Assembly: GCA_964419275.1 (NCBI GenBank)
Contig: CAYQOY010000001.1
Span: 15,218-79,217 of the forward strand
Direction of reading: 5' to 3'
DNA: 64,000 bases
Origin: Candidatus Woesearchaeota archaeon
GTDB taxonomy: Archaea > Nanobdellota > Nanobdellia > Pacearchaeales > GW2011-AR1
A model generated the notes under the pieces. It was given only the letters and a program-made list of their open reading frames with translations. It was not told the origin of the DNA and made no database searches. A program made the position numbers and the translations under genes. The stretch's first letter is position 1, and each line of letters starts with the position of its first letter. Of this stretch, positions 42,905-62,393 are shown one piece after another.

Positions 42905-45193
42905 ATGGAATTTGAACAGGGAGCAGCTCTTTATTCTTATCAAGTTAAAAAAGAGGGCGGTGAAGATGTTTTGTATATCAATTATCTAGGTGCGCCCTTT
43001 GTTCCGGATTTAGCTGGTTCTGCAGAGATTATGGAAAGAACAATGGATGCACTTATTGAAAATCCCAATGTTTCTAGAATTGTTTTTGTTCAACAAAAGA
43101 ATTACAATTACGATTTCAAAGAAACTTCTTTGATATTGGAAATTGCTCAACTTTATGTTTACTTAATTAAACAAGAACAAATACTTTCCAGAGAAAAATT
43201 AGTAACATTCAATGAACAATTTCACTCTTCAAGGTACAAGGAAATGTTTTCTTTTCTTTATTTGTTGAAAAGAGACCCGGTCTCAGCATACGCTACTCTG
43301 GAAGACACTATTGTTCACGCGAAGGTCATCTTAGAAAGAATGGGTGATGAAATGGCAAGAGACCAAGCTAATTATGTAAGACTTCTAGAGAAAATTTTCA
43401 TTTTATTAAGCTCAACAAAACTCATTTCTCAAGTCAAAGATTACATATCAGATTATTCCAAGGGAAGCAGAGAAATTTATTACCGCGTTTTCAAAGCAGA
43501 TGTAATTCCCAATTTCACTTTCACAAGGCTTGTTTCCGAATTGCCAGAAGATGCAGAGATTGTAGACCAATACAAAATTTCCAGCGGAGAGTATGATGAA
43601 TCTCTTGTTACAATTTTAAGAAGCAAAGAAGAAGCTAAAATGATTTACCATATTGTTCCTCCAGAAAATAATTTAAATGAATCTCAGAATATGCTTTTGA
43701 ATTTAGCTAAGAATGTTTTAATTGAGCACCAGCCTCGTGCAGAAGAATTTACAGACACTGAAAGAACAAGACATGTTTTTTTTAACATTGCCCGAGATTT
43801 ATTGCAAGATTTAGCGCAAACAAAAAAGATTCTCCTTAAGTATCCTGATTTAAACACCTTAGCAACAATTCTTGTAAGGCATACAATCGGTTTCGGAGTT
43901 ATCGAGGTTCTTTTGCAAGACAAAAAAATTCAGGATATTGTTTTGAATGCGCCTATTCCTTTGACTAAGATTTTTTTAAGGCATCAGGATTATGAAGAGT
44001 GTGCAACAAATATTCTTCCAAGCCAGGAAGAGGTTGACTCTTGGGCTTCAAAATTCAGAATGATTTCTGGAAGGCCTTTAGATGAAGCTAATCCTATTTT
44101 AGACACCCAATTGGAAATAGAAAAACTTAGAGCCAGAATTGCAATTGTTCAGCAGCCTCTTTCTCCAATGGGGATATCTTATGCAATTAGAAAACACAGA
44201 GAAGAGCCTTGGACATTGCCGCTGTTTATTAGAAATAGAACCCTGAATTCTTTTGCTGCAGGATTATTGAGTTTTCTTATTGATGGAGCAAGAACAATGC
44301 TTATTGCTGGAACAAGAAGCTCTGGTAAAACTTCTTTGCTGGGAAGTTTAATGCTTGAAATTTTGCCTAAAACTAGAATCATCGTTATTGAAGATTCTTT
44401 GGAGCTGCCATTGGATGCTTTAAGAAAATTAAACTACGATGTTCTCAGAATGAAGGTTCGTTCTGCTTTGCTTAAAACAACAACAGAAGTTTCAGCTTCA
44501 GATGGAATCAGAACCAGTTTAAGACTTGGAGATTCTTCTTTGATTATCGGTGAAGTTAGAAGCGCAGAAGCAAAAGCTCTTTATGAAGCAATGAGAATTG
44601 GTGCGCTTGCAAATGTCGTGGCTGGAACAATTCACGGTGCTTCACCTTATGATGTTTTTGACAGGGTTGTAAATGATTTGAATGTCCCAACAACAAGTTT
44701 CAAAGCAACAGACATAATTGTAGTTACAAATCCGATTAAATCTGCAGATGGGCTTTCTTCTAAAAAAAGAGTTTTGCTTGTAACAGAAGTTAGAAAGCAC
44801 TGGACAAAAGATCCTCTTCTTGAAAAAGGGTTTGTTGATTTGCTTAGATACAATGTTGAAAAAGATGAATTAGAACCCACAGAAGATTTGATTAATGGAG
44901 ACAGTGAAATAATCAAAAGCATTGCGTCAAGTGTTAAGGGCTGGGCTGGAAATTGGGATGCGGTTTATGATAATATTCTTTTAAGAGCTAAAATTAAGCA
45001 AGAGATAGTTGATGTTGCTGAAAGAATAGGCAATGAAAGGTTGCTTGAGGCTAAATTCAATGTTTTTGCTAATCAAGTCTTCCACAGGATTTCCAGCGAA
45101 GTTAGAGAAGAATTTGGATTGCCTTATTCAGATAAAGTTTTCCCTCGCTGGCAGAAATGGCTTAATGAGGAAATTAAGAGCGGCAAATGGTAA
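42905..45193 (+). CDS. FlaI/VirB11/GspE-family secretion ATPase with ~300-aa N-terminal extension (pilus assembly ATPase)
   Basis: Walker A AGTRSSGKTS, Asp box IIVIEDSLEL, Walker B/His box GEVRSAEA...AGTIHG. 762 aa. Confidence 0.8.
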   Translation: MEFEQGAALYSYQVKKEGGEDVLYINYLGAPFVPDLAGSAEIMERTMDALIENPNVSRIVFVQQKNYNYDFKETSLILEIAQLYVYLIKQEQILSREKLVTFNEQFHSSRYKEMFSFLYLLKRDPVSAYATLEDTIVHAKVILERMGDEMARDQANYVRLLEKIFILLSSTKLISQVKDYISDYSKGSREIYYRVFKADVIPNFTFTRLVSELPEDAEIVDQYKISSGEYDESLVTILRSKEEAKMIYHIVPPENNLNESQNMLLNLAKNVLIEHQPRAEEFTDTERTRHVFFNIARDLLQDLAQTKKILLKYPDLNTLATILVRHTIGFGVIEVLLQDKKIQDIVLNAPIPLTKIFLRHQDYEECATNILPSQEEVDSWASKFRMISGRPLDEANPILDTQLEIEKLRARIAIVQQPLSPMGISYAIRKHREEPWTLPLFIRNRTLNSFAAGLLSFLIDGARTMLIAGTRSSGKTSLLGSLMLEILPKTRIIVIEDSLELPLDALRKLNYDVLRMKVRSALLKTTTEVSASDGIRTSLRLGDSSLIIGEVRSAEAKALYEAMRIGALANVVAGTIHGASPYDVFDRVVNDLNVPTTSFKATDIIVVTNPIKSADGLSSKKRVLLVTEVRKHWTKDPLLEKGFVDLLRYNVEKDELEPTEDLINGDSEIIKSIASSVKGWAGNWDAVYDNILLRAKIKQEIVDVAERIGNERLLEAKFNVFANQVFHRISSEVREEFGLPYSDKVFPRWQKWLNEEIKSGKW

Positions 45194-45235
45194 GTTTATA
45201 GCAAGATTTATATATTTCTTAAGTTATTTTTACCT

Positions 45236-45454
45236 ATGAAACAATCAAGAAAAAAGAAATTTGACAAATCTTTATTTCTAGCCTGGCTCGCCGTGGTTAG
45301 TTATGTTATAGCTTTAATTTTTATTTCTGTGAATATAACCGGAAATGTGATAAATAATTCTGGTGCTCCAGACAGTTCCAGAATAATCAGTATCGGAACC
45401 TTTTTCTTAGGGCTTTGCTTTACTTTTTTTTATTTTAAAACTAAGAACAGATAG
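45236..45454 (+). CDS. small membrane protein between ATPase and platform genes
   Basis: 72 aa, two TM segments. Confidence 0.3.
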   Translation: MKQSRKKKFDKSLFLAWLAVVSYVIALIFISVNITGNVINNSGAPDSSRIISIGTFFLGLCFTFFYFKTKNR

Positions 45455-45511
45455 CCACAAAGATTTATTAATTGTTTTTACATTTTTAAGATAGTTTAAC
45501 CGAGGTGCTAA

Positions 45512-47677
45512 ATGTCTTTACCTAATCAAAATCCGCCAAGCGTAGATGATATTTTAAAAAAATACGGAAGAAAAATTGAAAAGCAAATCAACAGTTCGCC
45601 TCTTTCTTACCAAAAAGGAAATTACAGCCAGTCTTATTCCAAGTTCAAGCAAGAAATGGCTCCAGAATGGTCAAGATATGAACGATGGTGCAACATCCTT
45701 GGAAACACTTTGAAAGTAAAAGCTTCAAAAAAAGATGAAGAAAAAATCAAGAAATACTTAGAGATAGCTCATCTTGACGTTGAACCCTGGCAAGCAATTA
45801 CTCTCGGGTTAACTGCTTTTATCGGTGTTTTTTTTCTTAATTTAATTCTTTCTTTGTCTATATTTTTTATAACAACCAGTTTTCCAGGAACATTTTTTCT
45901 TTTGATGTTAATTTTTTCTTTGTTTATTTATTCTTACGTGAACAGTTATCCAGAAAGATTTGCCAACAAATGGAGGCTTAAAGCTTCATCTCAAATGGTC
46001 CCTGCTATTTTGTATGTTGTTGTTTACATGAGGCATACTCCTAATCTTGAAAAAGCAATTGCTTTTGCCGCAGAAAATATAGAATACCCCCTTTCCTTGG
46101 ATTTAAGAAAGGTTTTTTATGATGTTGAAATAGGAAAATTCTCAACAATAAAAGAAAGCTTAGATAATTACTTGGAAGTTTGGAGAGATTATTCTCCGGA
46201 ATTTATTGAGTCTTTCCATTTAATTGAAAGCAGCCTCTTTGAGCCCGGAGAAGACAGAAGAATTTCTGTTTTAGAAAAATCTATTCAAGTTGTTTTGGAT
46301 GGTGTTTATGACAGAATGCTTAAGTTTGTTCATGAAACAAAAGGCCCTGTTCAAAATACTTACATGTTGGGAACTGTTCTTCCTGTTTTAGGATTAGCGT
46401 TGCTTCCTTTAGCTTCGGTTATGATTGCAGATATGCTTAATGCAGATCATGTTTTCATGCTTTACAACTTAATTATTCCCTTTTTAGCTTTTTTCTTAAT
46501 GAATAAATACATGATGATGCGTCCAGGAGGACATGGAGAAACTTCTTTTTTAGAAAGAAACCCTAAGTATTCTTCTTTTAAAAATAATAGACATTATGTT
46601 AAAGCTTCTTTAATCGCAATTCCTTTAATTATTCTCGGATTTTTGCCTTTGATATTTCAGTATACCCCTCTTCCCGAACTTTTAGGATTACAAAAAGATT
46701 ATACTCTTGCTCAGTTGAAATTAGGCAGTTCTGAAGATCAAATGTTTTTTGGATTTGTTGGAAAACCCGGAGAACCGGTTAAAGGTCCATTTGGAATTGG
46801 TGCATCTATTCTAAGCATGTTTGTTCCTTTAGGAATCGCTCTATTCTTTTCTATTGCTTATACCAGTAAAACTAAGGAAATGATAAAAGAAAGAAATAAA
46901 ACCAAAGAGTTAGAAAAAGAATTCAACAGTTCACTTTTCCAGCTAGGAAATAGAATCGGAAATGGAACGCCTCCAGAGCTGGTTTTTAGCAAAGTTGCTG
47001 AATCTTCCAGAGGAATGAAAACTGAGGATTTCTTTAGAAAAGTTAGCTATAATATTCAAAGACTTGGAATGAGTGTTGAAAACGCTTTGTTTGAGAACAG
47101 AAGGGGAGTTATGAATGAGTACCCTTCCGGGTTAATTGCAACAAGCATGAGAATCTTAGTTGAGGCAGCCAAAAAAGGATTGCACATTGCAGCAGTTAGT
47201 TTGATGAGCATTTCAGAGTATATTAAAAATATTCAGAAAATTAATGATAGGCTAAAGGATATGCTTGCTGAAACTGTTTCAGATATGAAAAGTAATATGA
47301 CTTTCTTAACGCCTCTTCTAGCAGGTGTTGTTGTCGGACTTTCAACAATGATCACTAATATTCTGGGAAAAGTTAATCTTTTAGAAAGTTTGCAAGACCA
47401 GGAAATTTCGGGTATTGGCAATGTCTTAAAGATGATGGATATTAAATTAATGATTCCTCCTTATTTCCTTCAACTTGCAATCGGAATTTATTTGGTTCAA
47501 ATAATCTTTATTTTAACGCAAACTTTAGTCACAATAGACGCCGGTGAAGATGAGCTTGAAAGACTTAATAAAACTGGAAAAAACCTTAAGGCCGGAATGT
47601 TGTTTTACTTTTTCACTGCAGCAATTACCACTCTGATTTTATTTGCAATATCTTCTTCAGTTTTATCTGGAATGTGA
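45512..47677 (+). CDS. FlaJ/TadC-like polytopic membrane platform protein (T2SS-F-like)
   Basis: 721 aa. Two blocks of TM helices separated by cytoplasmic helical domains. Position immediately after the FlaI-like ATPase. Confidence 0.6.
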   Translation: MSLPNQNPPSVDDILKKYGRKIEKQINSSPLSYQKGNYSQSYSKFKQEMAPEWSRYERWCNILGNTLKVKASKKDEEKIKKYLEIAHLDVEPWQAITLGLTAFIGVFFLNLILSLSIFFITTSFPGTFFLLMLIFSLFIYSYVNSYPERFANKWRLKASSQMVPAILYVVVYMRHTPNLEKAIAFAAENIEYPLSLDLRKVFYDVEIGKFSTIKESLDNYLEVWRDYSPEFIESFHLIESSLFEPGEDRRISVLEKSIQVVLDGVYDRMLKFVHETKGPVQNTYMLGTVLPVLGLALLPLASVMIADMLNADHVFMLYNLIIPFLAFFLMNKYMMMRPGGHGETSFLERNPKYSSFKNNRHYVKASLIAIPLIILGFLPLIFQYTPLPELLGLQKDYTLAQLKLGSSEDQMFFGFVGKPGEPVKGPFGIGASILSMFVPLGIALFFSIAYTSKTKEMIKERNKTKELEKEFNSSLFQLGNRIGNGTPPELVFSKVAESSRGMKTEDFFRKVSYNIQRLGMSVENALFENRRGVMNEYPSGLIATSMRILVEAAKKGLHIAAVSLMSISEYIKNIQKINDRLKDMLAETVSDMKSNMTFLTPLLAGVVVGLSTMITNILGKVNLLESLQDQEISGIGNVLKMMDIKLMIPPYFLQLAIGIYLVQIIFILTQTLVTIDAGEDELERLNKTGKNLKAGMLFYFFTAAITTLILFAISSSVLSGM

Positions 47678-47739
47678 TAAGATTCTAAACGCAATTCAGA
47701 AAGAAAAACATTTATTAATTATTTGTCTTTGATAACCTT

Positions 47740-47886
47740 ATGAAGAAAAGAGGACTTGTTATAAGCTATACAACTAAAATTGTTATTCTGGCTATTCTGC
47801 TTTTGCTGATGTTGATAGGGTATGCTGCATTAAAAGAAACAGGGGTTTCATTTGTGGATAGAATAGGAGATATCTTTAAGGGTTAA
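47740..47886 (+). CDS. very small pilin-like ORF (48 aa; not in ORF track)
   Basis: MKKRG|LVISYTTKIVILAILLLLMLIGYAAL has a class-III-like N-terminus. Hand-translated; below the 60-aa track threshold. Confidence 0.25.
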   Translation: MKKRGLVISYTTKIVILAILLLLMLIGYAALKETGVSFVDRIGDIFKG

Positions 47887-47887
47887 A

Positions 47888-48913: not shown

Positions 48914-48921
48914 TTAACAAA

Positions 48922-49533
48922 ATGAAAAATAAAAAAGGATTTTTTTTAGCAGAAGAAACGATTCGGTTGATTGTAGGGGCTCTTATTTTAGTAAGTTTAG
49001 TTTCCCTTCTTGCTTTTTTATACTACTCTTCTCAACAAGATCAAGAACTTAAATTTGCAGAGAGTTCTTTAATCTATCTCGTGAGTCGTCTTGAAGCAGG
49101 AGATAAAGAGGTTATTCTTTTTGGACCTAAAGGATGGTACCTCATAGTAAACTCTGCTTGCAGGAATCTTGAAAATGTTCCTTGTATGTGCTTGCAAAAA
49201 GGACTTGGTTTTGGAGATTCTCCTGGAGAAGCCCAAAAAAGTGTTTGCATCAAAAATGATTTGAACATTAAAGTTTATCACGGCGAGACAGTATATGAAG
49301 AGATTTCCTCAGGTGTACAAGTGATTTGCGAAAGCGCTATTATGCTTAGTCCCCCTCAAAAAATCTGGGTTAAATCTTCTCCAGATAAAAAAATTCCATA
49401 TATTTTAACATTACAAGAATCTATAGAAATTTCAAATAACGCAGAATTTAAAGAGGGATGTAAATCTTCAATAGTAGAGTCCCCTTCAAATTCAAATGAA
49501 GTTAGACCTCGTATAGAAGGGAGTGATGCATAA
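48922..49533 (+). CDS. pilin-like protein with class III signal peptide
   Basis: MKNKKG|FFLAEETIRLIVGALILVSLVSLLAFLYY (Glu at +5 after the putative cleavage site). Cys-rich mature part. Confidence 0.55.
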   Translation: MKNKKGFFLAEETIRLIVGALILVSLVSLLAFLYYSSQQDQELKFAESSLIYLVSRLEAGDKEVILFGPKGWYLIVNSACRNLENVPCMCLQKGLGFGDSPGEAQKSVCIKNDLNIKVYHGETVYEEISSGVQVICESAIMLSPPQKIWVKSSPDKKIPYILTLQESIEISNNAEFKEGCKSSIVESPSNSNEVRPRIEGSDA

Positions 49534-49634
49534 TGGAATTTGAAACTTTAATAAAATATTTAATATGGATTATTTTTGTAGGGATAGCCTTAGCTGCAAT
49601 TTATTCCTTATTTAATAAAGCAGGAGTTATCTAA

Positions 49635-50630
49635 ATGAAATTCAATAAAAAAGGAGAAGTCGATGCGCAGATATTGAAAATAATCTTAGTAATAGCAGCA
49701 TTTTTGATAATTATTCTTTTAGTTATAAGATTTAATTTCACTAAGTCTATTGAGGATAATGTTTGTCGAGCTTCTATTTCTTTACAGTCTAAAGGAGGAA
49801 TTATTGGGGGCATTGCGAATAATGCTTTTTCTGCAAACTGTAAAACAAATTATGTTTGCATTTCTGGAGGAAAAAAGTGTTTGGGAATAAATCCAACAGA
49901 AACAATCAAGGTTGACGCCTCAGATAAAACTGAAATTATGAAAGCGATTGCAGATGAAATGGTTGATTGCTGGTGGGCTTATGGTGAAGGTAAAATGGCT
50001 TTTGCCGAAAGAGAAACTTGGAAAACAAATCTTGCTTGTGCAGCTTGTTCAAGAATTGTTTTTGACGAAAAAATTCAACAAACACAAGCAGAGATTTCTT
50101 ATCAAGATTTTTATAACTTTTTAACAGATTTTAAAAAATCCCCTTCTGAAACTTATTCTCAGTATATGTATAACACTAATAATGTAGACTATATCAATAA
50201 CCAATTTTCTGGAATTCGTTATAATTCAGTTTTTAGGCTTAGTTATATAAAAGATTATATCAAAAGCGAGGATTTAACTTTTAATCGAAAATTAGATTTT
50301 AAAAAAGATTATTACATCATAATTGGTTCTGCAAGACAGTCTTGGTTTGATGATAATTCTAATTGGATTTTTGGAGCAGCTGCAACAATTGTAGTTGGAG
50401 GAACATTACTTGCTACTGGCGGGACTGCTGCCCCTATTGTTATGGGAATCTCCACTGTTGCAAAAGGGACTGCGATAGGATTAGCTGGAGCAGGAACAGT
50501 TGGGGCAACTTTGATTTATAACTCGGTATTTAAACCAACAGATGATTCATACATTTTTTCTCCGATTATTTTAGAAGCTGATTCTTTAAAAGAAGTTCAG
50601 TGCCAAGAATACATAACTCTCCCCGGATAA
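49635..50630 (+). CDS. pilin-like protein with class III signal peptide and Gly-rich hydrophobic C-terminus
   Basis: MKFNKKG|EVDAQILKIILVIAAFLIIILLVI. C-terminal GAAATIVVGGTLLATGGTAAPIVMGISTVAKGTAIGLAGAGTVG. Confidence 0.55.
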   Translation: MKFNKKGEVDAQILKIILVIAAFLIIILLVIRFNFTKSIEDNVCRASISLQSKGGIIGGIANNAFSANCKTNYVCISGGKKCLGINPTETIKVDASDKTEIMKAIADEMVDCWWAYGEGKMAFAERETWKTNLACAACSRIVFDEKIQQTQAEISYQDFYNFLTDFKKSPSETYSQYMYNTNNVDYINNQFSGIRYNSVFRLSYIKDYIKSEDLTFNRKLDFKKDYYIIIGSARQSWFDDNSNWIFGAAATIVVGGTLLATGGTAAPIVMGISTVAKGTAIGLAGAGTVGATLIYNSVFKPTDDSYIFSPIILEADSLKEVQCQEYITLPG

Positions 50631-50686
50631 GCAGCTTCTTTATTTTCTATAAACATTTATTAATCTGTTTTTGTATTTTTTATAGT

Positions 50687-51106
50687 ATGAAATTATTAGG
50701 GATTAAGAGTAAAAGAGGAGAAAGTCTTTTGATGGAGAATATAATGTTTATTCTTATAACTGCTGTTTTTTTGGCAATGTTGATTACTTTTCTTGTTTCC
50801 AAGATGAATAGCCTTGCGATTTATGAAGAAATTTATGCAAAGAAAATAGCTTTGATATTAGATTATGCAAAGCCTGAGATGAAGATAGAAATTAATCTGG
50901 ATGATATCATGCCCAAAGAGAAATTAGAAAAAGAAGGCATAAGTTTTGATGGTTCTGTTTTTATTCAAGGTAATTTAGTTAATGTTAAACTTTATCCTGA
51001 AGGTAAAGGCTATTCTTATGCTTTTTTCAGTGATGTAAAAATTACTAGTTATTATTACAGTGCAGATAGAAACTCTTATGTTTTTATAATCGGGGGGTAT
51101 AACTGA
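50687..51106 (+). CDS. pilin-like protein with class III signal peptide
   Basis: MKLLGIKSKRG|ESLLMENIMFILITAVFLAMLITFLV. Start at internal ATG 50687, after the stop of the previous gene. Confidence 0.5.
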   Translation: MKLLGIKSKRGESLLMENIMFILITAVFLAMLITFLVSKMNSLAIYEEIYAKKIALILDYAKPEMKIEINLDDIMPKEKLEKEGISFDGSVFIQGNLVNVKLYPEGKGYSYAFFSDVKITSYYYSADRNSYVFIIGGYN

Positions 51107-51107
51107 A

Positions 51108-51623
51108 ATGCTCAATAAAAAAGGGGGACAAAAAGTTCTTTTTGTTTACTGGTTTGCGATATTCGTTATTATCACTGGCGGAGTGGTGTATATGGCTTCT
51201 GTTTTTTACGGAGCTCCTCACAATGTAAGAGAAGTTGAGTCCCAAGCACTTTTAGAAAGGGCTGTTGATTGTATTTCTGAAAAAGGGTATATTCATGAAG
51301 ATTTTTTAAATAAAAAAATAACTGATGAAACTCTCCTGGATTTTTGTCATTTCAATTTTGAAATTCCTTCCTCGGAAAAAAATCCGGTTGGTCAATATTA
51401 TCTTAAAATTGAATTTTTCAAATTTGATTCTTCTAAAGATTTAGCGATGGGAGAAAAAGTTTTAAGTTTAAACGCAGGAAATCCAAATCTTGATGCACCC
51501 CGGGAAATTTTAAAAGAGAATTATATTTCTCCGAAATTTGTTTATCTTTTAGACAAACAAGGCAATCCTTATGTAATTAAAATTAGCTCTATTGTGGGAA
51601 AGTTCAACGAAAATGTTAAATAA
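51108..51623 (+). CDS. pilin-like protein with class III signal peptide
   Basis: MLNKKG|GQKVLFVYWFAIFVIITGGVVYMA. Confidence 0.5.
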   Translation: MLNKKGGQKVLFVYWFAIFVIITGGVVYMASVFYGAPHNVREVESQALLERAVDCISEKGYIHEDFLNKKITDETLLDFCHFNFEIPSSEKNPVGQYYLKIEFFKFDSSKDLAMGEKVLSLNAGNPNLDAPREILKENYISPKFVYLLDKQGNPYVIKISSIVGKFNENVK

Positions 51624-52098
51624 AAAAGCTCAAGTTGGAGAAGGAATAACCTGGATTTTCACAACAATTGTGATAATTGTTTTTTTAGTTGCAGCAGTTC
51701 TTATAACTGACAAACTAGTGGAGGTAAAAGGATGGGCAACTAAAGCGCGAGAGATTTTTTCTCTTAAAGAGCAAACAGAAAAAATTGATAAGGATTTTAT
51801 TTTTTCCAAGTCTGTTTCAAGTTTTTTGTTAGTTAAAAGTTCAGACTCTGAAAAATTGTTTGGTTTGAAACCAAGAATAATCTCTTCGGGGATAGTTGAA
51901 GTTTCGGAATTTATCTTTGGAAATCTAGACCCCGTTCATTTAGGGCCAATTGGCAATCTTATCTCTGTATTAATTAATGAAGAAGCCGGAGTTTTCAGCG
52001 GTCCGCAATCAGAGAATCTCCCTTTGAAAAATTTAGAAAATCTATTCAGCACAATTAAATCTCAAGCAAATCTCGGAGGTATTGGTGAGAAATTATAA
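51613..52098 (+). CDS. pilin-like protein with class III signal peptide
   Basis: MLNKKA|QVGEGITWIFTTIVIIVFLVAAVLIT. Start set at internal ATG 51613. Confidence 0.5.
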   Translation: MLNKKAQVGEGITWIFTTIVIIVFLVAAVLITDKLVEVKGWATKAREIFSLKEQTEKIDKDFIFSKSVSSFLLVKSSDSEKLFGLKPRIISSGIVEVSEFIFGNLDPVHLGPIGNLISVLINEEAGVFSGPQSENLPLKNLENLFSTIKSQANLGGIGEKL

Positions 52099-52106
52099 TT
52101 TTTAAA

Positions 52107-52454
52107 ATGATGAATCGAAAAAAAGCAACATCAATTCCGATTATGGTTTTAGTTATAGGTGCTTTAGTGGTTTTCACTTTTGCAATAATGAGCTTTGTGA
52201 AAAATTTATCTAGCACTAGAAGCACTTCTTTAGATTTAGAGCCATTGAAAGAAGTTTATATCGATGCAGTAGGATTTTATTTTTACAGGAATCTAGGGCA
52301 GTCAAACGAAGAAGCTTTCAATAAGATAAATAACCCTGAATCAGGAAAGTCTGTGAAATTAGAAAAAGATTATTTGACAATCTCTCGTTCAAAAGGTTCT
52401 GTTTCTGTTCTTTATCGCATTAATATTAAAGAGATTTCTTCTGAAGGTGAATAA
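52107..52454 (+). CDS. small pilin-like protein with class III signal peptide (major-pilin candidate by size)
   Basis: MMNRKKA|TSIPIMVLVIGALVVFTFAIMSF. 115 aa. Confidence 0.5.
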   Translation: MMNRKKATSIPIMVLVIGALVVFTFAIMSFVKNLSSTRSTSLDLEPLKEVYIDAVGFYFYRNLGQSNEEAFNKINNPESGKSVKLEKDYLTISRSKGSVSVLYRINIKEISSEGE

Positions 52455-52509
52455 TCCAAGGAAAGCAAATCATAGAAATATTTATAAATCCCTACTGAAT
52501 ATTCTTGAT

Positions 52510-53436
52510 ATGCACAACAAAAGAGGTCAAGAATTTGGAATAAATTCTGCTGTACTTATTGTTATAGTTATCATTGTTCTTGGAATAATTGTTGCTGGAG
52601 TTTCCATGGGCTGGGAAAATTTAACTGCCTGGATTCAGCCAGACACTGTTTCTATAACTGCAGGAAAATGCTCTACTTCTTGTGGAGTGAATAATCAAAT
52701 AGATTTTTGTTCAAGTCCTAAATCCTTTAAAGCAAGCAGAGCAACAGTTCGCGCAGTTACAAGTGACGAAGCTCTTGCAACATATAACCTTTCATATAAA
52801 AATGAGCAAAAACTATTCCAATCAGTAAGAGAAGAATATCTTAAGAAAACATTTGAATATCAGATTTATAATACTAGTGCAGGAATATATCAAATTCCTA
52901 CAGATTATAATCCTACCAAATACACACATCCAGATAATAATTCTATTAATATCTCTGATTTCCTTAAAAATAAAGGTGTCACAGACCCAGAAAATTATCT
53001 TTCTCCTTCAAAGTTAATTAAACTAATTCCTAAAGCAGGTGAAGAAGGTTACTTAAAATCTAATGCAATTTTCCCAGAATTGTTTGCACTCGATGCTTCA
53101 CCAACAGACGGGAAGAGCATTAAATTTAAGAGTTTAGATTCTTCAACAGGAGAGGACACAGAACTTAGAAATACCTTAATCGAGTTAGCTAAAGATTCTG
53201 CTACCCGAAATTATTTAACAGCAGCAAAAAATTTAATGTATTATATGCAAGTAAAAGAAAAAGAAGGTTCTATAACTGGAATTAAAGTTAATGAATTTTC
53301 TTGCGCAGCTTTATCCGAACACCCTGTTTGGAAAGAATACTTCAAGAAATGTAGAGAGGATAACTTACTTTGTGAAGGGAAAAGTGCAGCAAGCAGTTCA
53401 GACTTAGAGACCTACTTAAAGATTAAACAAAGATAG
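52510..53436 (+). CDS. pilin-like protein with class III signal peptide
   Basis: MHNKRG|QEFGINSAVLIVIVIIVLGIIVAGV. Start at internal ATG 52510. Cys-containing extracellular part. Confidence 0.5.
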   Translation: MHNKRGQEFGINSAVLIVIVIIVLGIIVAGVSMGWENLTAWIQPDTVSITAGKCSTSCGVNNQIDFCSSPKSFKASRATVRAVTSDEALATYNLSYKNEQKLFQSVREEYLKKTFEYQIYNTSAGIYQIPTDYNPTKYTHPDNNSINISDFLKNKGVTDPENYLSPSKLIKLIPKAGEEGYLKSNAIFPELFALDASPTDGKSIKFKSLDSSTGEDTELRNTLIELAKDSATRNYLTAAKNLMYYMQVKEKEGSITGIKVNEFSCAALSEHPVWKEYFKKCREDNLLCEGKSAASSSDLETYLKIKQR

Positions 53437-53504
53437 ATATAGCCATTTAATCTATTTTTTATCTTTCTTAAACTCGCAAGAATTATAAACTAGATTTTAT
53501 TTTT

Positions 53505-54869
53505 TTGTTTATGAAATATCAAAGAGGACAAGCTGTAGTTTCGCATAGTTTAATTTATTTTATTATTGCTTTAATGGTTCTTGTAGGCTTGTTGGTTTAC
53601 TTAACCTTGGGCAAGGAGATTATTCCTAGGCAAGACACTAATTTAGATGATTTAGCTTCTCAGTGCGATACATTGTGTTCTCTTAAAGATCAAGAAGGAT
53701 TTTGCGAGAATATCCGTCCATTAGTAATAAAAGGCAAGAAAGTGGAAACAGAAACTTGCGCTTCTCTTGCAAGAGATTATCCAAATATCTTCCAAGGATG
53801 TTCTTTTTTTAGTTGCTCTAATTCTCAGGCATACTCTTTTTATTCCTATGTCAGTTCAGGCGGGTTTATTCAACAAAGCACAGGGTTGCTTGAAAATGGG
53901 GTTATATTAAATGTATTTAATACTCAGATGGAAGATGTCCTTCCAGATGCTTTTAAAGTTAGTCTTGATGATATAACCGAAGCAAGAGCAATATTAAATA
54001 ATAAAGGCATACTTTCAGGAGCAGACATTGATGCAGGAATTGGCCCGCGATTTTCTTCTGCACTTATTCTTTTCCAGTTGGAATATCTTGGAAAAGATAA
54101 GGTTACAGGGCTTCCAAATAAAGAAACTTTAGATGAGCTAGCAAAGTTAAAAAATTCCGACGGAACAATAAACTTGCCTTCCTTTCAAAGTTGGGGCAAA
54201 CCAGAACCCACAGATTGGAGCAAGAGTCAGGGCAGTTTAAATATAAACGACTTAGTGGTTTTGCCTTCTGCAGAAAAATCCGCTTCTGGGAAAACACTAT
54301 ACGCTTTTGTCGAAAAAGAAACAGCAATTGCTTGGGCGTTTTTAATCCGAGAAGCTATGGAAGAAACAGAGCCAGAATTAGATTTAGAAAGATTTGTTTT
54401 AGTCGATGCAGACGGGGGCTATAGGCCTTTGTATAACCAAATGGTAGTGTTGTTACAATATGGGTGTTGCAAGTATAAAGATTCTTGTAAATCTTTTCCT
54501 AGCCCTCAATTAAGCACTTATGTAAATATTCCTGCTTGGGATAATAAAGATTCTGCTAAAAACTGGATTGAGAAAAATTATAATGCTTACTGCAACAACC
54601 CTGGAGAATTGGAGTTTAATAATCTCTTATCGCAGATTAATACCGGAGCTTTAAAAGGAACAGCCACTGGAGCTCATTCAAGAGGAACAGCATTAGATTT
54701 TAATTTGAAAAATAATCAGAATATAATGTCAGATGTTCAAGGAAAATGGTTAGAAGAAAATGGGAGAAATTTTGGTTTTTGCCCTTATCTAAATAAAGAC
54801 ACACCCGAACCTAATGATTATATTGAAACTTGGCATTGGGAGTATAAAGGCGTTGATGGTTGTTCTTAA
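53505..54869 (+). CDS. pilin-like N-terminus fused to peptidoglycan-binding domain and VanY/M15-like (LAS) metallopeptidase domain
   Basis: MFMKYQRG|QAVVSHSLIYFIIALMVLVGLLVYL. PG_binding_1-like AGIGPRFSSALILFQLEYLGKDKVTGLPNKETLDEL. LAS motifs H..G.A.D (AHSRGTALDF) and E.WHWEY (IETWHWEYKG). Confidence 0.6.
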   Translation: MFMKYQRGQAVVSHSLIYFIIALMVLVGLLVYLTLGKEIIPRQDTNLDDLASQCDTLCSLKDQEGFCENIRPLVIKGKKVETETCASLARDYPNIFQGCSFFSCSNSQAYSFYSYVSSGGFIQQSTGLLENGVILNVFNTQMEDVLPDAFKVSLDDITEARAILNNKGILSGADIDAGIGPRFSSALILFQLEYLGKDKVTGLPNKETLDELAKLKNSDGTINLPSFQSWGKPEPTDWSKSQGSLNINDLVVLPSAEKSASGKTLYAFVEKETAIAWAFLIREAMEETEPELDLERFVLVDADGGYRPLYNQMVVLLQYGCCKYKDSCKSFPSPQLSTYVNIPAWDNKDSAKNWIEKNYNAYCNNPGELEFNNLLSQINTGALKGTATGAHSRGTALDFNLKNNQNIMSDVQGKWLEENGRNFGFCPYLNKDTPEPNDYIETWHWEYKGVDGCS

Positions 54870-54908
54870 TTGCGAAATTATTATAAACTCTTTTTTATTT
54901 TAATAAAC

Positions 54909-55643
54909 ATGAACAAAAGAGGACAAGAGTATGTAATTACTATGATTGTAGTTCTCGCTTTAATGACTTTAATTCTTGGGCTTTATATGGGTTGGATTGA
55001 CACAAGCATTCCAGTGATAAATAGTCTTATAGGAAAAGAAAACCTTGATTTGAGAGTGCAAGAGTGTAATAATGCTTGCAATAGCATTCCTCCCCAATCA
55101 TATGCTTATTGCCAAAAAACTAGAAAGCTTACACTTCCCGATAAAAAGAAAACAGAAGGAACTTGTTACGAATTTTCTAGGGGAGAAAATATCCCCGCAG
55201 AATATAAATCTTATTTTCAATCTTGCGAAAAAATAAATTGTGAAGAATTTTTAGGTGGAGTAGAAGCAGAGGAGGAAGATGGGGGGGAAGATGAAGAAGC
55301 TGAATCGCCTTTAAATCCGGAAAATCTTATTCTCAAGATGAATGCGTATACCTTAAAAAGCGGAGAAAGTAGAGTACTAGATTTAAATAATAATAATTTA
55401 TACAAAATTATAGGATCTAATAGTGCTGCAATTCCTTTAGCAACAATCATTCTTTCTAAAGATATAAACAGCTGTGATTATCCCCCTATTAAGATTAATG
55501 CAGGAACCTATTCCCTTTTGTCAATGGTGTACGATCTTAATAACCACCAAAACGTTAAATATTTTATTGATGACACTATTGATAATGGTAAAAATCCTTG
55601 TGTTCGTTTAAATCAGTTTACCTTTAAAGAATGGCTTATCTAA
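54909..55643 (+). CDS. pilin-like protein with class III signal peptide and acidic stretch
   Basis: MNKRG|QEYVITMIVVLALMTLILGLYMGW. EAEEEDGGEDEEAES. Cys-rich. Confidence 0.5.
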   Translation: MNKRGQEYVITMIVVLALMTLILGLYMGWIDTSIPVINSLIGKENLDLRVQECNNACNSIPPQSYAYCQKTRKLTLPDKKKTEGTCYEFSRGENIPAEYKSYFQSCEKINCEEFLGGVEAEEEDGGEDEEAESPLNPENLILKMNAYTLKSGESRVLDLNNNNLYKIIGSNSAAIPLATIILSKDINSCDYPPIKINAGTYSLLSMVYDLNNHQNVKYFIDDTIDNGKNPCVRLNQFTFKEWLI

Positions 55644-55697
55644 TTCTCTTTGTTGTTTCTTTTCTCCGAAAATGTTTATAAATTCTCGAAGGCTCTA

Positions 55698-56666
55698 ATG
55701 GCTATGAGGGGAATTGAAAACAAACGAGCGCAGGGTGCATCCATTGAAACAGTCATAGGTTTTGTTTTAGGTGCAATAGTTTTGGTTTTAGCAATTTTTT
55801 ATTTCACTGGAAACTTTGATTTAATATTAAATTTGTTTTTTAGGGAGAATGTTGATAAAATTATTGCAAAATGTGATTCTTTTTGCGATTTAAAGCAAAC
55901 ATATAACTATTGCGAGTTAAATCAAAAAGTTGTTTTTTCATCAAAAGAAAAAGAACAAGGTTCTTGCTATGCTCTTTCACTGGCTTATTCATATTTTCCT
56001 AGCTGTCCTTCTTTGGATTGTCAAACTAGAGCACGACAACTTTTAAGTGATTCAAAATATGACCTTGTCGAGGGGAATACAATGAGAGGTGATAAATCTA
56101 AGATTTCCCAAGTTCTTGAATCAGCGAAAAATCTTGAAACAACAAAATCCAGCCGTTCTTGTAATTGTGGAACAAGTTGTGATGATTATGCGGGATATTT
56201 AATTGCTGCAGCACAACAAGTAAATTCAGCTGGATTTTCCAAAGATCCTTTAGATCCTTTGTTGATTGCTGCTTTGTTGATGCAAGAAACAAATTGCAAT
56301 GCTCAAGCAGGATTTCCCTACACGACTTCTGGAAAAGCATATGGGATTGCTCAAATTGTTCCGAGTGTTTGGTGTGGACAGACGCCCCTCTTAAGTGTTC
56401 AAACATCTGCTTGTGTAAACCAGCTTAAATCTGCTGAAACAAGCATACTTTCTGCTGCAGATATTTTAAAAAAGAATTATCGAGTAGGAGATAAACTGTT
56501 TGAAGGTGCTTGTATTGTTGAGTATTCTTCTAAAAAATATTCTGGCTGGGCAGCTGCATTAAGAGGCTATGTTGGTTGGGGATGTGCTGAAGGGCATGAC
56601 TCTTATGTAACAGATGTTATACTTCTTTACACTCAATTAAAAGAAAAGTATAATTCCTTGAACTAA
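55698..56666 (+). CDS. pilin-like N-terminus fused to lytic-transglycosylase (SLT/lysozyme-like) domain
   Basis: MAMRGIENKRA|QGASIETVIGFVLGAIVLVLAIFYF. SLT motifs LLMQETNCNAQAGFP (E-S/T catalytic block) and SGKAYGIAQIVPSV (G.A.GLMQ.MP.T block). Confidence 0.55.
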   Translation: MAMRGIENKRAQGASIETVIGFVLGAIVLVLAIFYFTGNFDLILNLFFRENVDKIIAKCDSFCDLKQTYNYCELNQKVVFSSKEKEQGSCYALSLAYSYFPSCPSLDCQTRARQLLSDSKYDLVEGNTMRGDKSKISQVLESAKNLETTKSSRSCNCGTSCDDYAGYLIAAAQQVNSAGFSKDPLDPLLIAALLMQETNCNAQAGFPYTTSGKAYGIAQIVPSVWCGQTPLLSVQTSACVNQLKSAETSILSAADILKKNYRVGDKLFEGACIVEYSSKKYSGWAAALRGYVGWGCAEGHDSYVTDVILLYTQLKEKYNSLN

Positions 56667-56814
56667 ATTCAAATTTCCAATTAAAAACTAAGATGTCAGA
56701 TTATGCTGTTCCGGACAAGAGAAATAAGGGAAAAGATAAGAAAAAGAATAGAAAGAAGTATCCTTACAGGCATGGCGGGAAGCAAAGAACAAAAGAGGAG
56801 ATTTAATCGTATCT

Positions 56815-57687
56815 ATGATTGAAATAATTGTTTTGGTTGCTCTTGCATTAATCTGGCTGGTATTTGCCAGTGTTCATGATGTTCGAACAACAGAAGTTCC
56901 TGACTGGCTTAATTTTTCTTTGATTGCTTTTGCACTTGGCTTCAGGTTTTTTTACTCTTTATTTGCTTTGGTAAATTTTAGTTTCTTTTTTCAAGGCTTA
57001 ATTGGATTGGGAATATTCTTTGTTTTGGGAAATTTATTTTATCATGGAAAAATGTTTGCAGGTGGAGATGCAAAGCTTATGATTGCCTTGGGAACAATTT
57101 TGCCTTTTTCCTTTAGTTTAGTTGAAAATTTGAAGCTGTTTGTCGCATTTTTGCTCGTTTTCTTTTTAACAGCTTCTATTTTTGGGATTTCCACTAGCAT
57201 TTATTTTGCAATTAAAAACAAAAACAATTTCAAAAAAGAATTCATTAAAACTTATCAGAAAAATAAAAAAATAAGCTTGGTTGTTCAAGCATTGGCTTTA
57301 ATTGTGATGATGCTTGGGTTGATTAATCAACAAGGATTATTTTATCTTGGAATTTTTGTTTTTCTAAGCCCCTTGCTTTTTAATTTTGCAAAATCTGTCG
57401 ACGAGGCTTGTATGGTTAAGCTTGTCGATTCCAATAAGCTGATGGAAGGAGACTGGCTTTACAAACCTATTTTAGTTGGAAATAAAAAAATACTTGCAAA
57501 ATGGGATGGATTAAGCAAACAAGAAATAAAGCTCATTCAAAAACATAAAAAATTTGTATGGATTAAAAAAGGAGTTCCCTTCGTGCCTGTTTTTTTGATT
57601 AGTTTTATTATACTCTGCGTTTTATTTTTGTTTTTTAAGGAATTCTTCTTGGAAACCAGATACTTTTTTCTTGCTCTGGGTGCTTAG
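56815..57687 (+). CDS. prepilin peptidase (A24 family; PibD/FlaK-like)
   Basis: Polytopic membrane protein. First catalytic Asp region SVHDVRTTEVPD. Second catalytic motif GGDAKLMIALG. Confidence 0.7.
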   Translation: MIEIIVLVALALIWLVFASVHDVRTTEVPDWLNFSLIAFALGFRFFYSLFALVNFSFFFQGLIGLGIFFVLGNLFYHGKMFAGGDAKLMIALGTILPFSFSLVENLKLFVAFLLVFFLTASIFGISTSIYFAIKNKNNFKKEFIKTYQKNKKISLVVQALALIVMMLGLINQQGLFYLGIFVFLSPLLFNFAKSVDEACMVKLVDSNKLMEGDWLYKPILVGNKKILAKWDGLSKQEIKLIQKHKKFVWIKKGVPFVPVFLISFIILCVLFLFFKEFFLETRYFFLALGA

Positions 57688-61232: not shown

Positions 61233-62393
61233 ATGAAAACCTACATAACTTCTGAGTCTGTAACAGAAGGACATCCTGACAAAATTTGTGATCAAATTTC
61301 AGATGCAATACTAGATAAACTTATTGCACAGGATCCCAGTTCTAGAGTAGCTGTTGAAACTCTTGTGACAACTGGGAGTGTTCACGTTGCTGGAGAAGTT
61401 ACCAGCGAAGGATTTGCAGATATTCATGAGATTGTAAGAAATACCCTTAAAAGAATAGGATATAATGATCCTGAGTTTGGAATGGATTATGAAGATGCAG
61501 GCGTTTGGGTAAGTATTCATTCTCAAAGTCTAGATATTTCTCAAGGAGTTAATGAAAAAACAAACGGAGAACAAAAAGAACAAGGTGCAGGAGATCAAGG
61601 AATGATGTACGGCTTTGCTTGCAATGAAACTCCTGAATTAATGCCTATGCCGATTATTTATGCTCATAAACTCGCAAAAGCTCTTGCGAGTTTCAGAAGA
61701 TCTGGCGCGTTAAATAAGGGATTGGGCCCAGATGGAAAAACTCAAGTTACAGTGGAATATGAAAACGGAAAACCAAAAAGAATCGACACTATTGTAATTG
61801 CTCAACAGCATAAAAAACAAGTTAGTGAGAATAAGCTAAGAAAAGAAATTTACAGAAAAGTTATTGTACCGGTTTGTGGAAAGTTAATTGATAGACAAAC
61901 TAAAATTCATATTAACGCTACAGGAAGATTTGTCATCGGTGGGCCTGAAGGAGATACCGGATTAACTGGAAGAAAAATTATTGTGGACAGCTATGGGGGC
62001 GTTGGAAGAGTCGGCGGAGGATGTTTTAGTGGAAAAGATCCTTCAAAAGTCGACAGAAGTGGTGCTTATATTGCAAGGCATATCGCAAAGAATATCGTTG
62101 CTGCAAAACTTGCTGACAAATGTGAGATTCAAATAAGTTATGCGATTGGAATAGCCAAGCCTGTTTCAGTTCACATAGACTGCTTTAATACAAATAAAAT
62201 TCCAGAAGAGCAAATAAGAAAAATTGTTGCTGAAACATTTGACTTGCGCCCTAAGGCAGTTATTGAGTATCTTGATTTGAAAAAACCAATTTATGAAAAA
62301 ACAGCCAGCTACGGCCATTTTGGAAGAAGCGAATTTTCTTGGGAAAAAACCGACAAAGTTGAAGAATTGAGAAAAAAAGCAGGTTTAGCTTAA
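61233..62393 (+). CDS. metK: S-adenosylmethionine synthetase, bacterial/eukaryotic MetK type
   Basis: [97 protein letters not shown]. Near-identical blocks to E. coli MetK. Confidence 0.9.

What the first reader, a model, noticed from the sequence alone, without database searches (positions are those of the whole stretch)
55698..56666. Pilin-like N-terminus fused to a lytic-transglycosylase (SLT/lysozyme-like) domain
After the class III signal (KRA|QGASIETVIGFVLGAIVLVLAIFYF) and a Cys-rich region, the C-terminal half contains LLMQETNCNAQAGFP. This corresponds to the SLT motif I block ES.fnp.A, with the catalytic Glu. It is followed by SGKAYGIAQIVPSV, corresponding to the G.A.GLMQ.MP.T motif II. 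Together with the M15 protein two genes upstream, it gives the locus a glycan-strand cleaver and a peptide-stem cleaver, i.e. a complete murein-lysis toolkit.
Basis: partly seen in the sequence, partly recalled or inferred. Interest (0 to 1): 0.75.

Follow-up and report, generated by a model that had tools for sequence, protein, structure and literature searches.

The report
Cell-wall-cutting enzyme on an archaeal pilin
A tiny (DPANN, Pacearchaeota-like) archaeon, which has no bacterial-type cell wall of its own, encodes a bacterial-cell-wall-cutting enzyme fused to a pilus-subunit-like anchor inside its pilus operon, suggesting a surface filament or surface array built to attack or feed on bacteria.

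The parts
55675..55682 (+). TATA-box-like TTTATAAA, 15 nt upstream of the ATG at 55698. This suggests the gene has its own archaeal promoter and a leaderless or near-leaderless mRNA.
   Evidence: Read from the sequence. The same element lies 21 nt before the ATG at 52510 of a paralogue. Promoter function is inferred from general knowledge of archaeal promoters.
55698..56666 (+). Gene for the 322-aa pilin-like / SLT fusion protein (stop codon included).
   Evidence: An exact copy is on record in NCBI on a 93,450-bp contig, unnamed. An orthologue with 96% identity occurs in 6 contigs. dN/dS against that orthologue is 0.37.
55698..55730 (+). Class III (prepilin-type) signal leader, MAMRGIENKRA. 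The predicted cleavage site is KRA|Q, between residues 11 and 12.
   Evidence: Read from the sequence. The site aligns with KRG|Q in three paralogous neighbours. 46 of 78 complete short family members carry a [KR][GA] + hydrophobic helix N-terminus. Cleavage itself is inferred.
55731..55889 (+). Hydrophobic N-terminal helix continuing into an amphipathic helix (residues 12-64), resembling helix alpha-1 of a type IV pilin.
   Evidence: The AF2 model has helices 16-37 and 40-64, with pLDDT 72-91.
55869..56021 (+). Small Cys-rich head (C59-x3-C63-x8-C72...C90...C103-x4-C108). Together with the helix it forms a module shared with ORFs 52510-53436, 53511-54869 and 54909-55643.
   Evidence: BLASTP of 55698 against 54870 gives 3.6e-13, and against 53505 gives 3e-9. 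The same module is found in P0055, P0110, P0053 and P0027.
56022..56093 (+). Flexible linker (residues 109-132).
   Evidence: pLDDT is below 50 for residues 111-125.
56094..56663 (+). GH23 / SLT-type lytic transglycosylase domain (residues 133-322), with family-specific cysteines (C155-x-C157-x3-C161, C200, C226, C296).
56286..56288 (+). Codon of Glu197, the predicted catalytic acid/base (motif I; ET here, ES in 147 of 154 family members).
   Evidence: Glu is present in 154/154 aligned family domains. It aligns with the catalytic Glu of MltC and MltE. It lies at the C-terminal end of helix 187-198. It is the only invariant acidic residue of the domain.
56343..56354 (+). Motif II, G216-I-A-Q219 (family consensus GLMQ).
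   Evidence: G in 153 and Q in 152 of about 153 aligned domains. L is replaced by I in 12 domains and M by A in 5.
56568..56576 (+). Motif III, Y291-V-G293 (family consensus YNG, corresponding to AYNxG of family 1 lytic transglycosylases).
   Evidence: Y in 153/153, G in 153/153, and V instead of N in 24.
56815..57687 (+). Prepilin/preflagellin peptidase (A24), the likely processing enzyme.
   Evidence: Pfam Peptidase_A24 6.5e-13, 49.5 bits. NCBIfam FlaK 4.5e-9. It holds the same position in L003, L012, L013 and L014.
53511..54869 (+). Paralogous pilin-like module fused to an M15/VanY-type peptidase. A possible PG_binding_1 region at residues 155-212 is only weakly supported.
   Evidence: Pfam VanY 5.6e-7, 29.9 bits, above the gathering score of 25; PG_binding_1 only E 0.1. 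PDB VanY-type 5hnm 2e-3, with AHSRGTALD and ETWHWEY aligned to the metal and catalytic motifs.
54909..55643 (+). Paralogous pilin-like module with an acidic linker and an unassigned C-terminal domain.
52510..53436 (+). Paralogous pilin-like module with an unassigned C-terminal domain of about 230 aa.
48922..52454 (+). Six further consecutive pilin-like ORFs with class III-like N-termini (48922, 49635, 50687, 51108, 51613, 52107). In other genomes, homologues of four of them carry the SLT domain.
42905..45193 (+). Type-IV-filament assembly ATPase (FlaI/TadA/VirB11 superfamily).
   Evidence: Pfam T2SSE 8.5e-14. NCBIfam TadA-type 2.3e-37, FlaI 9.3e-37, BasE 8.9e-22, all below the equivalog cut-offs.
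45512..47677 (+). Polytopic membrane platform protein (TadC/FlaJ-like).
   Evidence: Pfam T2SSF 1.1e-4, 22.6 bits, below the gathering score of 25.2. A homologue precedes the pilin/SLT row in L009 (2.6e-84) and L008 (5e-50).

Best explanation
The gene encodes a modular, pilin-like protein of a DPANN (Pacearchaeota-like) archaeon.

Proposed sequence of events:
1. The short basic leader is removed by the A24 prepilin peptidase encoded 150 bp downstream, with predicted cleavage at KRA|Q (inferred).
2. The exposed hydrophobic helix and small disulfide-rich head let the operon's ATPase/platform machine extract the protein from the membrane. It is then mounted on, or at the tip of, a type-IV-type filament or a short pseudopilus-like surface array (inferred).
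3. A flexible linker of about 25 residues holds out a C-terminal GH23/SLT lytic transglycosylase. Its fold and catalytic Glu197 are shown by profile and structure comparison.

Archaea do not make murein (general knowledge). The sister subunits in this operon and in relatives carry an M15/VanY peptidase and, in one relative, an N-acetylmuramoyl-L-alanine amidase. The substrate is therefore most likely the peptidoglycan of bacteria the archaeon touches. The enzyme would cut the MurNAc-GlcNAc glycan strand, releasing 1,6-anhydro-muropeptides. That would locally open the wall for attachment, penetration or nutrient extraction (inferred).
For: Domain identity:
- Homologues P0002 and P0003 carry PF01464.
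- 39 of 41 aligned family members hit Pfam SLT, best 8.1e-18.
- The leave-one-out family HMM scores the window protein at 240.5 bits.
- The family profile against PDB gives MltC 1.8e-9, MltE 5.7e-7, EtgA 2.4e-6 and Slt70 4.7e-5, with Glu on Glu.
- The AF2 model has pLDDT above 90 over most of the domain.
- Glu197 is invariant in 154/154 domains and is the only invariant acid, which fits a single-acid lytic transglycosylase mechanism.

Filament context:
- One same-strand cluster runs 42905-57687 and holds the ATPase, the platform protein, ten consecutive class III-type ORFs and the A24 peptidase.
- The carrier module is paralogous to three neighbours.

Comparative evidence:
- The syntenic operon (platform, pilins, A24, HIT, EF1b, RPA, RadA) occurs in L003, L012, L013 and L014. 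It carries the SLT on different subunits.
- SLT is fused to homologues of ORFs 49635, 50687, 51108 and 52107 and to the CxxxC module. In the 51108 type it is inserted mid-protein.
- L013 also carries an Amidase_2 domain inserted in a 51108-type subunit.
- An Aenigmatarchaeota locus shows a platform homologue, then pilin-like ORFs, then a class III SLT protein.
- All five genome loci found are DPANN archaea. The one 'Patescibacteria' label sits on an archaeal, syntenic contig.

Host organism: the window is archaeal, with PolD DP1/DP2, Cdc6, EF1b and a RadA 76% identical to that of a Pacearchaeota MAG.

Literature: SLT/GH23 domains in Pace- and Woesearchaeota have already been proposed to bind or degrade bacterial walls (PMC8204110, PMC9723730).
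Against: - No experiment or expression data exist.
- Alone, the window protein is below Pfam's SLT gathering score.
- It departs from the family consensus at three motif positions (S198T, M218A, N292V), so reduced or altered activity cannot be excluded.
- The 'pilin' head is very small. No known pilin family (Pfam or NCBIfam) or pilin structure was matched.
- Class III signals in archaea also occur on non-filament proteins such as sugar-binding proteins and proteases (PMC2910488). Incorporation into a filament is therefore not established.
- Foldseek E-values for the full-length model were weak (0.01 or worse), although every hit was GH23.
- The bacterial partner or target is unknown.
- The M15 fusion occurs only in this lineage, and its structure could not be modelled.
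Confidence: 0.6

Rival explanations
1. This is a surface-anchored or bindosome-like enzyme rather than a filament subunit. The class III signal only targets and anchors the hydrolase at the cell surface, as for the Sulfolobus sugar-binding proteins assembled by BasEF. There it digests free peptidoglycan debris, and the archaeon scavenges amino sugars and amino acids.
For: - Archaeal class III signals are documented on substrate-binding proteins and proteases (PMC2910488).
- The ATPase also matches the bindosome ATPase BasE, at 8.9e-22.
- The pilin head is tiny, and no pilin family is matched.
- Pacearchaeota genomes are reported to be rich in muramoyl-tetrapeptide carboxypeptidase, which fits scavenging (PMC11537232).
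- The window also encodes a 1710-aa secreted S8 protease.
Against: - The SLT domain has been grafted repeatedly onto at least five different subunit families of the same operon, including mid-protein insertions that keep both halves of the subunit. This is easier to explain if the carrier's assembly function matters.
- Ten different pilin-like genes are more than a simple anchor needs.
Confidence: 0.27
2. The substrate is not murein, or the domain only binds glycan. It could act on chitin or another beta-1,4-GlcNAc-type polymer, or on a host archaeal envelope glycan, or serve as an adhesin with little catalysis.
For: - The window protein deviates at three canonical motif positions.
Against: - The catalytic Glu, the Gln of motif II and the Tyr/Gly of motif III are retained.
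- The closest sequence matches are murein lytic transglycosylases.
- Sister subunits carry murein-specific peptidase and amidase domains (VanY, Amidase_2).
- dN/dS of 0.37 indicates constraint on the protein.
Confidence: 0.08
3. This is a machine-assembly ('specialised') lytic transglycosylase like VirB1, EtgA or plasmid R64 PilT. It would clear a gap in the producer's own wall so the filament machine can be inserted.
Against: - The producer is an archaeon, and archaea lack murein (general knowledge).
- No murein-synthesis gene is seen in the window.
- The same domain family also sits at the end of 2000-3000-aa extracellular proteins of DPANN archaea (PMC8204110).
- The enzyme is fused to a secreted pilin-like module, not to a periplasmic machine part.
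Confidence: 0.03

Closest known systems
[quoted passage not shown] 2021, PMC8204110; GH23 in Vigneron et al. 2022, PMC9723730)
   Same: They share the same SLT domain family. The profile built from the window protein and its relatives retrieves dozens of 1900-3000-aa proteins at E 1e-41 to 1e-24, with the same Cys pattern and motifs. The host clade is the same, and so is the proposed target, bacterial walls.
   Different: Those proteins are giants with ordinary Sec-type signal peptides; only 5 of 49 match the class III pattern. This protein has 322 aa, carries a class III signal on a pilin-like module, and sits inside a type-IV-filament operon.
Bacterial family 1 lytic transglycosylases (GH23): MltC, MltE/EmtA, Slt70, MltF
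   Different: - Sequence identity is only 13-18%.
- There are extra conserved cysteines (CxCx3C, C200, C296).
- The producer is an archaeon without murein.
- The N-terminus is a class III signal, not a lipoprotein or Sec signal.
- The window protein itself is below the Pfam SLT threshold.
Specialised lytic transglycosylases of bacterial secretion and pilus systems (EtgA, VirB1, R64 PilT; named from my own knowledge)
   Same: A GH23 domain is encoded within a secretion or filament gene cluster. EtgA is among the best matches.
   Different: Those enzymes open the producer's own sacculus and are not pilin fusions. Here there is no self sacculus, and the enzyme is carried by the pilin-like subunit.
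Modular type IV pilins of bacteria (e.g. [quoted passage not shown]
   Same: The architecture is the same: a class III signal and pilin module, then a grafted functional module.
   Different: The described examples are bacterial, with adhesin or lectin-type modules. Here the system is archaeal and the grafted modules are murein hydrolases. No sequence similarity to those pilins was found.
Sulfolobus bindosome (Bas system) and other archaeal non-pilin proteins with class III signals (PMC2910488)
   Same: A functional extracellular protein carries a class III signal. It depends on a PibD-type peptidase and a FlaI/FlaJ-like ATPase/platform pair.
   Different: The bindosome cargo is sugar-binding proteins for uptake. 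No murein hydrolase is involved, and the lineage is different.
Archaeal peptidoglycan hydrolases that kill bacteria (PMC12352652), and the Myxococcus Kil Tad-like apparatus for contact-dependent prey killing (PMC8460266)
   Same: Both supply the concept: archaeal enzymes aimed at bacterial murein, and a type-IV-filament-class machine used in contact-dependent attack.
   Different: My term search of the archaeal-hydrolase paper returned no mention of pilins, class III signals or SLT. I did not read the Kil paper (PMC8460266); that no murein hydrolase-pilin fusion is reported for Kil is my own recollection, not something checked here.

Membership tests
GH23 / Pfam SLT (PF01464), family 1 lytic transglycosylases | Score above the Pfam gathering threshold | tested here: not met
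   The window protein alone scores 16.9 bits against a gathering score of 21.3, E 0.0048. However, 39 of 41 aligned family members hit SLT (best 8.1e-18). The window protein scores 240.5 bits against a family HMM built without it.
GH23 / Pfam SLT (PF01464), family 1 lytic transglycosylases | Lysozyme-like alpha-helical fold | tested here: met
GH23 / Pfam SLT (PF01464), family 1 lytic transglycosylases | Catalytic Glu in motif I (E-S) at the end of a helix | tested here: met
   Glu197 aligns with the catalytic Glu of MltC and MltE; mutant entry 4cfo has Q in that column. It is invariant in 154/154 domains and lies at the end of helix 187-198. Ser is replaced by Thr, as in 5 of 154 members.
GH23 / Pfam SLT (PF01464), family 1 lytic transglycosylases | Motif II GLMQ and motif III AYNxG | tested here: inconclusive
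   G216, Q219, Y291 and G293 are kept. L is replaced by I, M by A and N by V (GIAQ, YVG). The family consensus is canonical, GLMQ and YNG.
GH23 / Pfam SLT (PF01464), family 1 lytic transglycosylases | Non-hydrolytic cleavage giving 1,6-anhydroMurNAc products | not testable with these tools
   The only indirect evidence is that no second conserved carboxylate exists in the domain, as in lytic transglycosylases and unlike g-type lysozymes (general knowledge).
Archaeal class III signal peptide proteins / type IV pilin-like subunits | Short basic leader, a [KR]-[GA] cleavage motif, then a hydrophobic stretch of about 20 aa at the mature N-terminus | tested here: met
   The sequence reads ...NKRA|QGASIETVIGFVLGAIVLVLAIFYF. 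The site aligns with KRG|Q of three paralogues.
Archaeal class III signal peptide proteins / type IV pilin-like subunits | Cognate A24 prepilin peptidase, assembly ATPase and platform protein encoded nearby | tested here: met
   Peptidase_A24 6.5e-13 lies directly downstream. T2SSE ATPase scores 8.5e-14. The platform protein gives a weak T2SSF hit (22.6 bits, below the gathering score of 25.2) but has conserved homologues in related loci.
Archaeal class III signal peptide proteins / type IV pilin-like subunits | Match to a described pilin or archaellin family, or to the pilin fold (long alpha-1 helix plus beta-sheet head) | tested here: inconclusive
Archaeal class III signal peptide proteins / type IV pilin-like subunits | Cleavage by the peptidase and incorporation into a filament | not testable with these tools
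   This needs biochemistry, proteomics or imaging.
DPANN SLT-domain family (as in the giant Pace-/Woesearchaeota proteins) | Full-length match to the family profile, including the family-specific cysteines | tested here: met
   240.5 bits in the leave-one-out test. C155, C157, C161, C200, C226 and C296 are present. The library holds 844 proteins at E of 1e-3 or better and 60 at 1e-30 or better.

The most novel reading that the evidence does not exclude
DPANN archaea of the Pace-, Woese- and Aenigmatarchaeota groups build a 'lytic pilus'. This would be a type-IV-type filament whose interchangeable subunits carry murein hydrolases: a lytic transglycosylase, an M15 peptidase and a MurNAc-L-Ala amidase. 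It would work as a contact-dependent tool to breach the walls of bacterial hosts or prey. That would be a cross-domain parasitism or predation organelle, and direct genomic evidence that these archaea live on bacteria.
Probability: 0.35. Interest if true: 0.85.

Novelty: new variant of a known kind. Interest (0 to 1): 0.62.

Why it matters
Whether the abundant, uncultured Pacearchaeota and Woesearchaeota depend on bacterial rather than archaeal partners is an open question. It has so far been argued mainly from the presence of GH23 domains in giant surface proteins.

This locus offers a more concrete and testable mechanism. Murein hydrolase domains are built into the subunits of a conserved filament operon, and they have been re-grafted onto different subunits in different genomes. 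That gives small, expressible targets: a 190-aa enzyme domain, a defined cleavage site and an adjacent peptidase. It also gives a genomic marker, class III signal plus murein hydrolase, for predicting bacteria-associated DPANN lineages.

It would also extend 'modular pilins' to archaea and to enzymatic cargo.

Tried and rejected
- Single-sequence searches of the protein against PDB and NCBIfam gave nothing. Pfam alone was sub-threshold.
- The first word-index homologue search returned only 3 proteins. The exhaustive profile search was needed to find the family.
- The AFDB50 fold library was unavailable.
- The genome-contig scan used over-specific patterns and returned only 5 loci, so the taxonomic census is thin.
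- I tried to characterise the sister cargo domains. ORF 54909-55643 has no Pfam or PDB hit and only 5 close homologues. The M15 protein has only 2 close homologues, and its AF2 model failed (pLDDT 35.6), so it was not used.
- The source record of the window could not be retrieved by exact look-up.
- I considered cleavage after MAMRG|I and rejected it. It would leave K and R at positions +4 and +5, and the paralogue alignment puts KRA|Q on KRG|Q.
- I rejected a bacterial (Patescibacteria) origin for family member P0027. Its contig encodes RadA, EF1b, eIF2-alpha and Hjc and is syntenic with the window.
- Seven full-text searches, and targeted reading of the archaeal T4P census (PMC4858521), a 2026 preprint on archaeal type-IV-filament systems, and DPANN genomics papers, found no description of pilin-borne murein hydrolases in archaea. 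Absence from this library does not prove it is unpublished.

Full report
**What is there**

A TATA-like TTTATAAA lies 15 nt upstream of the ATG. The protein has 14 cysteines. An exact copy is on record in NCBI on a 93-kb contig without a name. An orthologue with 96% identity occurs on six other contigs, and dN/dS against it is 0.37.

**The host**

The window is archaeal. It encodes PolD DP1 and DP2, Cdc6/Orc1 and EF1-beta, and a RadA 76% identical to that of a Pacearchaeota MAG. GC content is about 33%.

**The C-terminal domain**

Alone, the protein gives only a sub-threshold Pfam SLT hit (16.9 bits against a gathering score of 21.3, residues 182-265). It has no single-sequence PDB or NCBIfam match.

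Two homologues, P0002 (4.8e-29) and P0003 (2.1e-14), carry precomputed PF01464 and canonical MQESSC and VGLMQI motifs. P0003 is annotated by NCBI as an SLT domain protein of a Pacearchaeota MAG.

A profile of four domain sequences retrieved 844 proteins at E of 1e-3 or better (276 at 1e-10, 60 at 1e-30) from the 1.8-billion representative library. Of 41 aligned members, 39 hit Pfam SLT, best 8.1e-18. An HMM built without the window protein or its near-identical orthologue P0001 scores the window protein at 240.5 bits.

The family profile matches solved lytic transglycosylases: MltC 1.8e-9, MltE 5.7e-7, EtgA 2.4e-6 and Slt70 4.7e-5. The Glu of MQE(S/T) falls on their catalytic Glu, and the mutant MltC entry 4cfo shows Q in that very column.

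Across 161 aligned domains:
- Glu197 is invariant (154/154).
- Ser198 is present in 147 and Thr in 5, including this protein.
- G216 and Q219 are essentially invariant. L217 is I in 12 domains and M218 is A in 5.
- Y291 and G293 are invariant. N292 is V in 24.

Glu197 is the only invariant acidic residue of the domain. This fits the single-acid mechanism of lytic transglycosylases (inference).

The domain is a GH23/SLT-type enzyme, a somewhat divergent member (ET, GIAQ, YVG) of an SLT clade that has so far been found only in DPANN archaea. That clade has extra conserved cysteines (CxCx3C, C200, C226, C296).

**The N-terminal part and the locus**

Residues 1-36 form a short basic leader, KRA|Q and a hydrophobic helix. 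The model continues this helix to residue 64. A small head with six Cys follows, then a low-confidence linker at residues 109-132.

The gene is the last of ten consecutive ORFs (48922-56666) with [KR][GA] + hydrophobic N-termini. Elsewhere in the window only four scattered, dubious matches occur among 65 ORFs.

Upstream on the same strand lie a T2SSE/FlaI/TadA-type ATPase (42905-45193) and a large polytopic platform protein (45512-47677; weak T2SSF hit). Immediately downstream is an A24 prepilin peptidase (6.5e-13).

The first 110 or so residues are paralogous to those of three neighbouring genes. BLASTP gives 3.6e-13 to ORF 54870 and 3e-9 to ORF 53505. All share KR[GA]|Q, the helix, and a C-x3-C...C...C...C-x4-C head.

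ORF 53511-54869 carries an M15/VanY domain. Pfam gives 29.9 bits, above the gathering score of 25. The H..D and E.WH motifs align to VanY-type structures. The other two neighbours carry unassigned C-terminal domains.

**Comparative evidence**

The same syntenic operon (platform, pilin-like row, A24, HIT, EF1-beta, RPA, then RadA) occurs in L003, L012, L013 and L014.

In these and other metagenomic relatives the SLT domain sits on different subunits:
- At the C-terminus of homologues of ORF 50687 (P0019, P0093 and others).
- Inserted in the middle of homologues of ORF 51108 (P0002, P0004, P0009 and others, with both halves of the subunit retained).
- On homologues of ORF 49635 (P0046) and ORF 52107 (P0013).
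- On the CxxxC module (P0027, P0053, P0055, P0110).

In L013, a 51108-type subunit next to the SLT subunit carries an inserted Amidase_2 domain.

In an Aenigmatarchaeota MAG and in an unclassified archaeal MAG, a platform homologue (2.6e-84 and 5e-50 respectively) is followed by pilin-like ORFs and a class III SLT protein.

Of 78 complete short family members, 46 have a class III-like N-terminus. Among the giant members (1900-3000 aa) only 5 of 49 do; the giants have ordinary signal peptides.

All five genome loci found are DPANN archaea. One member is labelled 'Patescibacteria', but its contig is archaeal and syntenic with the window, so the label is a binning or annotation error.

**Interpretation**

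Shown here:
- A GH23/SLT fold with the catalytic Glu.
- A class III-type N-terminus.
- Membership in a conserved type-IV-filament operon with its peptidase.
- Repeated, independent grafting of murein hydrolase domains onto the subunits of that operon.

Inferred:
- Cleavage at KRA|Q.
- Assembly into or onto a filament.
- Bacterial murein as the substrate.
- A role in attachment, penetration or feeding.

The grafting pattern argues that what matters is presenting the hydrolase through this machinery, not which subunit carries it. The main rival is a bindosome-like surface array or a simple anchor used for scavenging wall debris. Archaeal class III signals are known on non-pilin proteins (PMC2910488). 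A housekeeping role like that of VirB1 or EtgA is unlikely in an organism without murein.

**Relation to what is known**

GH23/SLT domains in Pace- and Woesearchaeota are published. They were described as parts of very large extracellular proteins and interpreted as evidence for interaction with bacteria (PMC8204110, PMC9723730, PMC11537232). My profile links the window protein to exactly those giants.

Modular pilins are known in bacteria (PMC6916266). Class III-signal enzymes and binding proteins are known in archaea (PMC2910488). Archaeal murein hydrolases that kill bacteria were reported in 2025 (PMC12352652).

I found no description of murein hydrolases borne on pilin-like subunits of an archaeal type-IV-filament operon, including in the archaeal T4P census (PMC4858521) and a 2026 preprint on these systems. 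I therefore rate it a new variant of known kinds.

The M15 domain resembles stem-peptide carboxypeptidases. It is confined to this lineage and could not be modelled.

Noticed in passing
L013:10103-11134 (JGI contig Ga0373628_0000543): In a syntenic operon of a related archaeon, a homologue of window ORF 51108-51623 carries an inserted Amidase_2 (PF01510) domain. It sits next to an SLT-bearing homologue of ORF 50687. This is a second kind of murein hydrolase on a pilin-like subunit.
   Followed up: partly
window 56693-56806 (+): A 37-aa, very basic ORF (MSDYAVPDKRNKGKDKKKNRKKYPYRHGGKQRTKEEI) lies between the SLT gene and the A24 peptidase gene. It is conserved at the same position in L003, L012 and L013 (59-92% identity). 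Its function is unknown.
   Followed up: partly
window 54909-55643 (+) and 52510-53436 (+): Two more proteins share the KRG|Q + helix + CxxxC carrier module. Their C-terminal 'cargo' domains (about 130 and 230 aa; the first follows an acidic EEEDGGEDEEAE linker) match no Pfam family. The first also gave no PDB hit; the second was not searched against PDB. They may be further effector or binding modules.
   Followed up: partly
L012 (JGI Ga0369713_1000291); protein P0027 = NCBI MBW6442606.1: NCBI labels this SLT-pilin protein 'Patescibacteria group bacterium'. Its 62-kb contig encodes RadA, EF1-beta, eIF2-alpha, Hjc and an A24 peptidase in the same order as the window. It is therefore an archaeal contig, mis-binned or mis-labelled.
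   Followed up: yes
window 24630-29762 (+): This ORF encodes a 1710-aa protein with an I9 propeptide, an S8 subtilase domain (2.9e-59) and a weak FG-GAP hit. It is a very large secreted protease in a small-genome archaeon.
   Followed up: no
window 61233-62393 (+): The S-adenosylmethionine synthetase is of the MetK type. The orthologue in L003 has S-AdoMet_synt_N/M/C domains. To my knowledge this is the bacterial/eukaryotic type and not the usual archaeal enzyme.
   Followed up: no
L008:1423-4551 and L009:2005-4515: In the Aenigmatarchaeota-type loci, very large proteins (1042 and 836 aa) with class III-like N-termini (MGKKG..., MASKG...) lie directly after the platform gene. They may be giant pilin-like adhesins.
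   Followed up: no
window 42905-45193 (+) and 45512-47677 (+): The assembly ATPase (762 aa) and the platform protein (721 aa) both look unusually long to me for their families, and the ATPase has an N-terminal extension of about 300 aa ahead of its T2SSE match (residues 403-602). The extra regions were not analysed.
   Followed up: no
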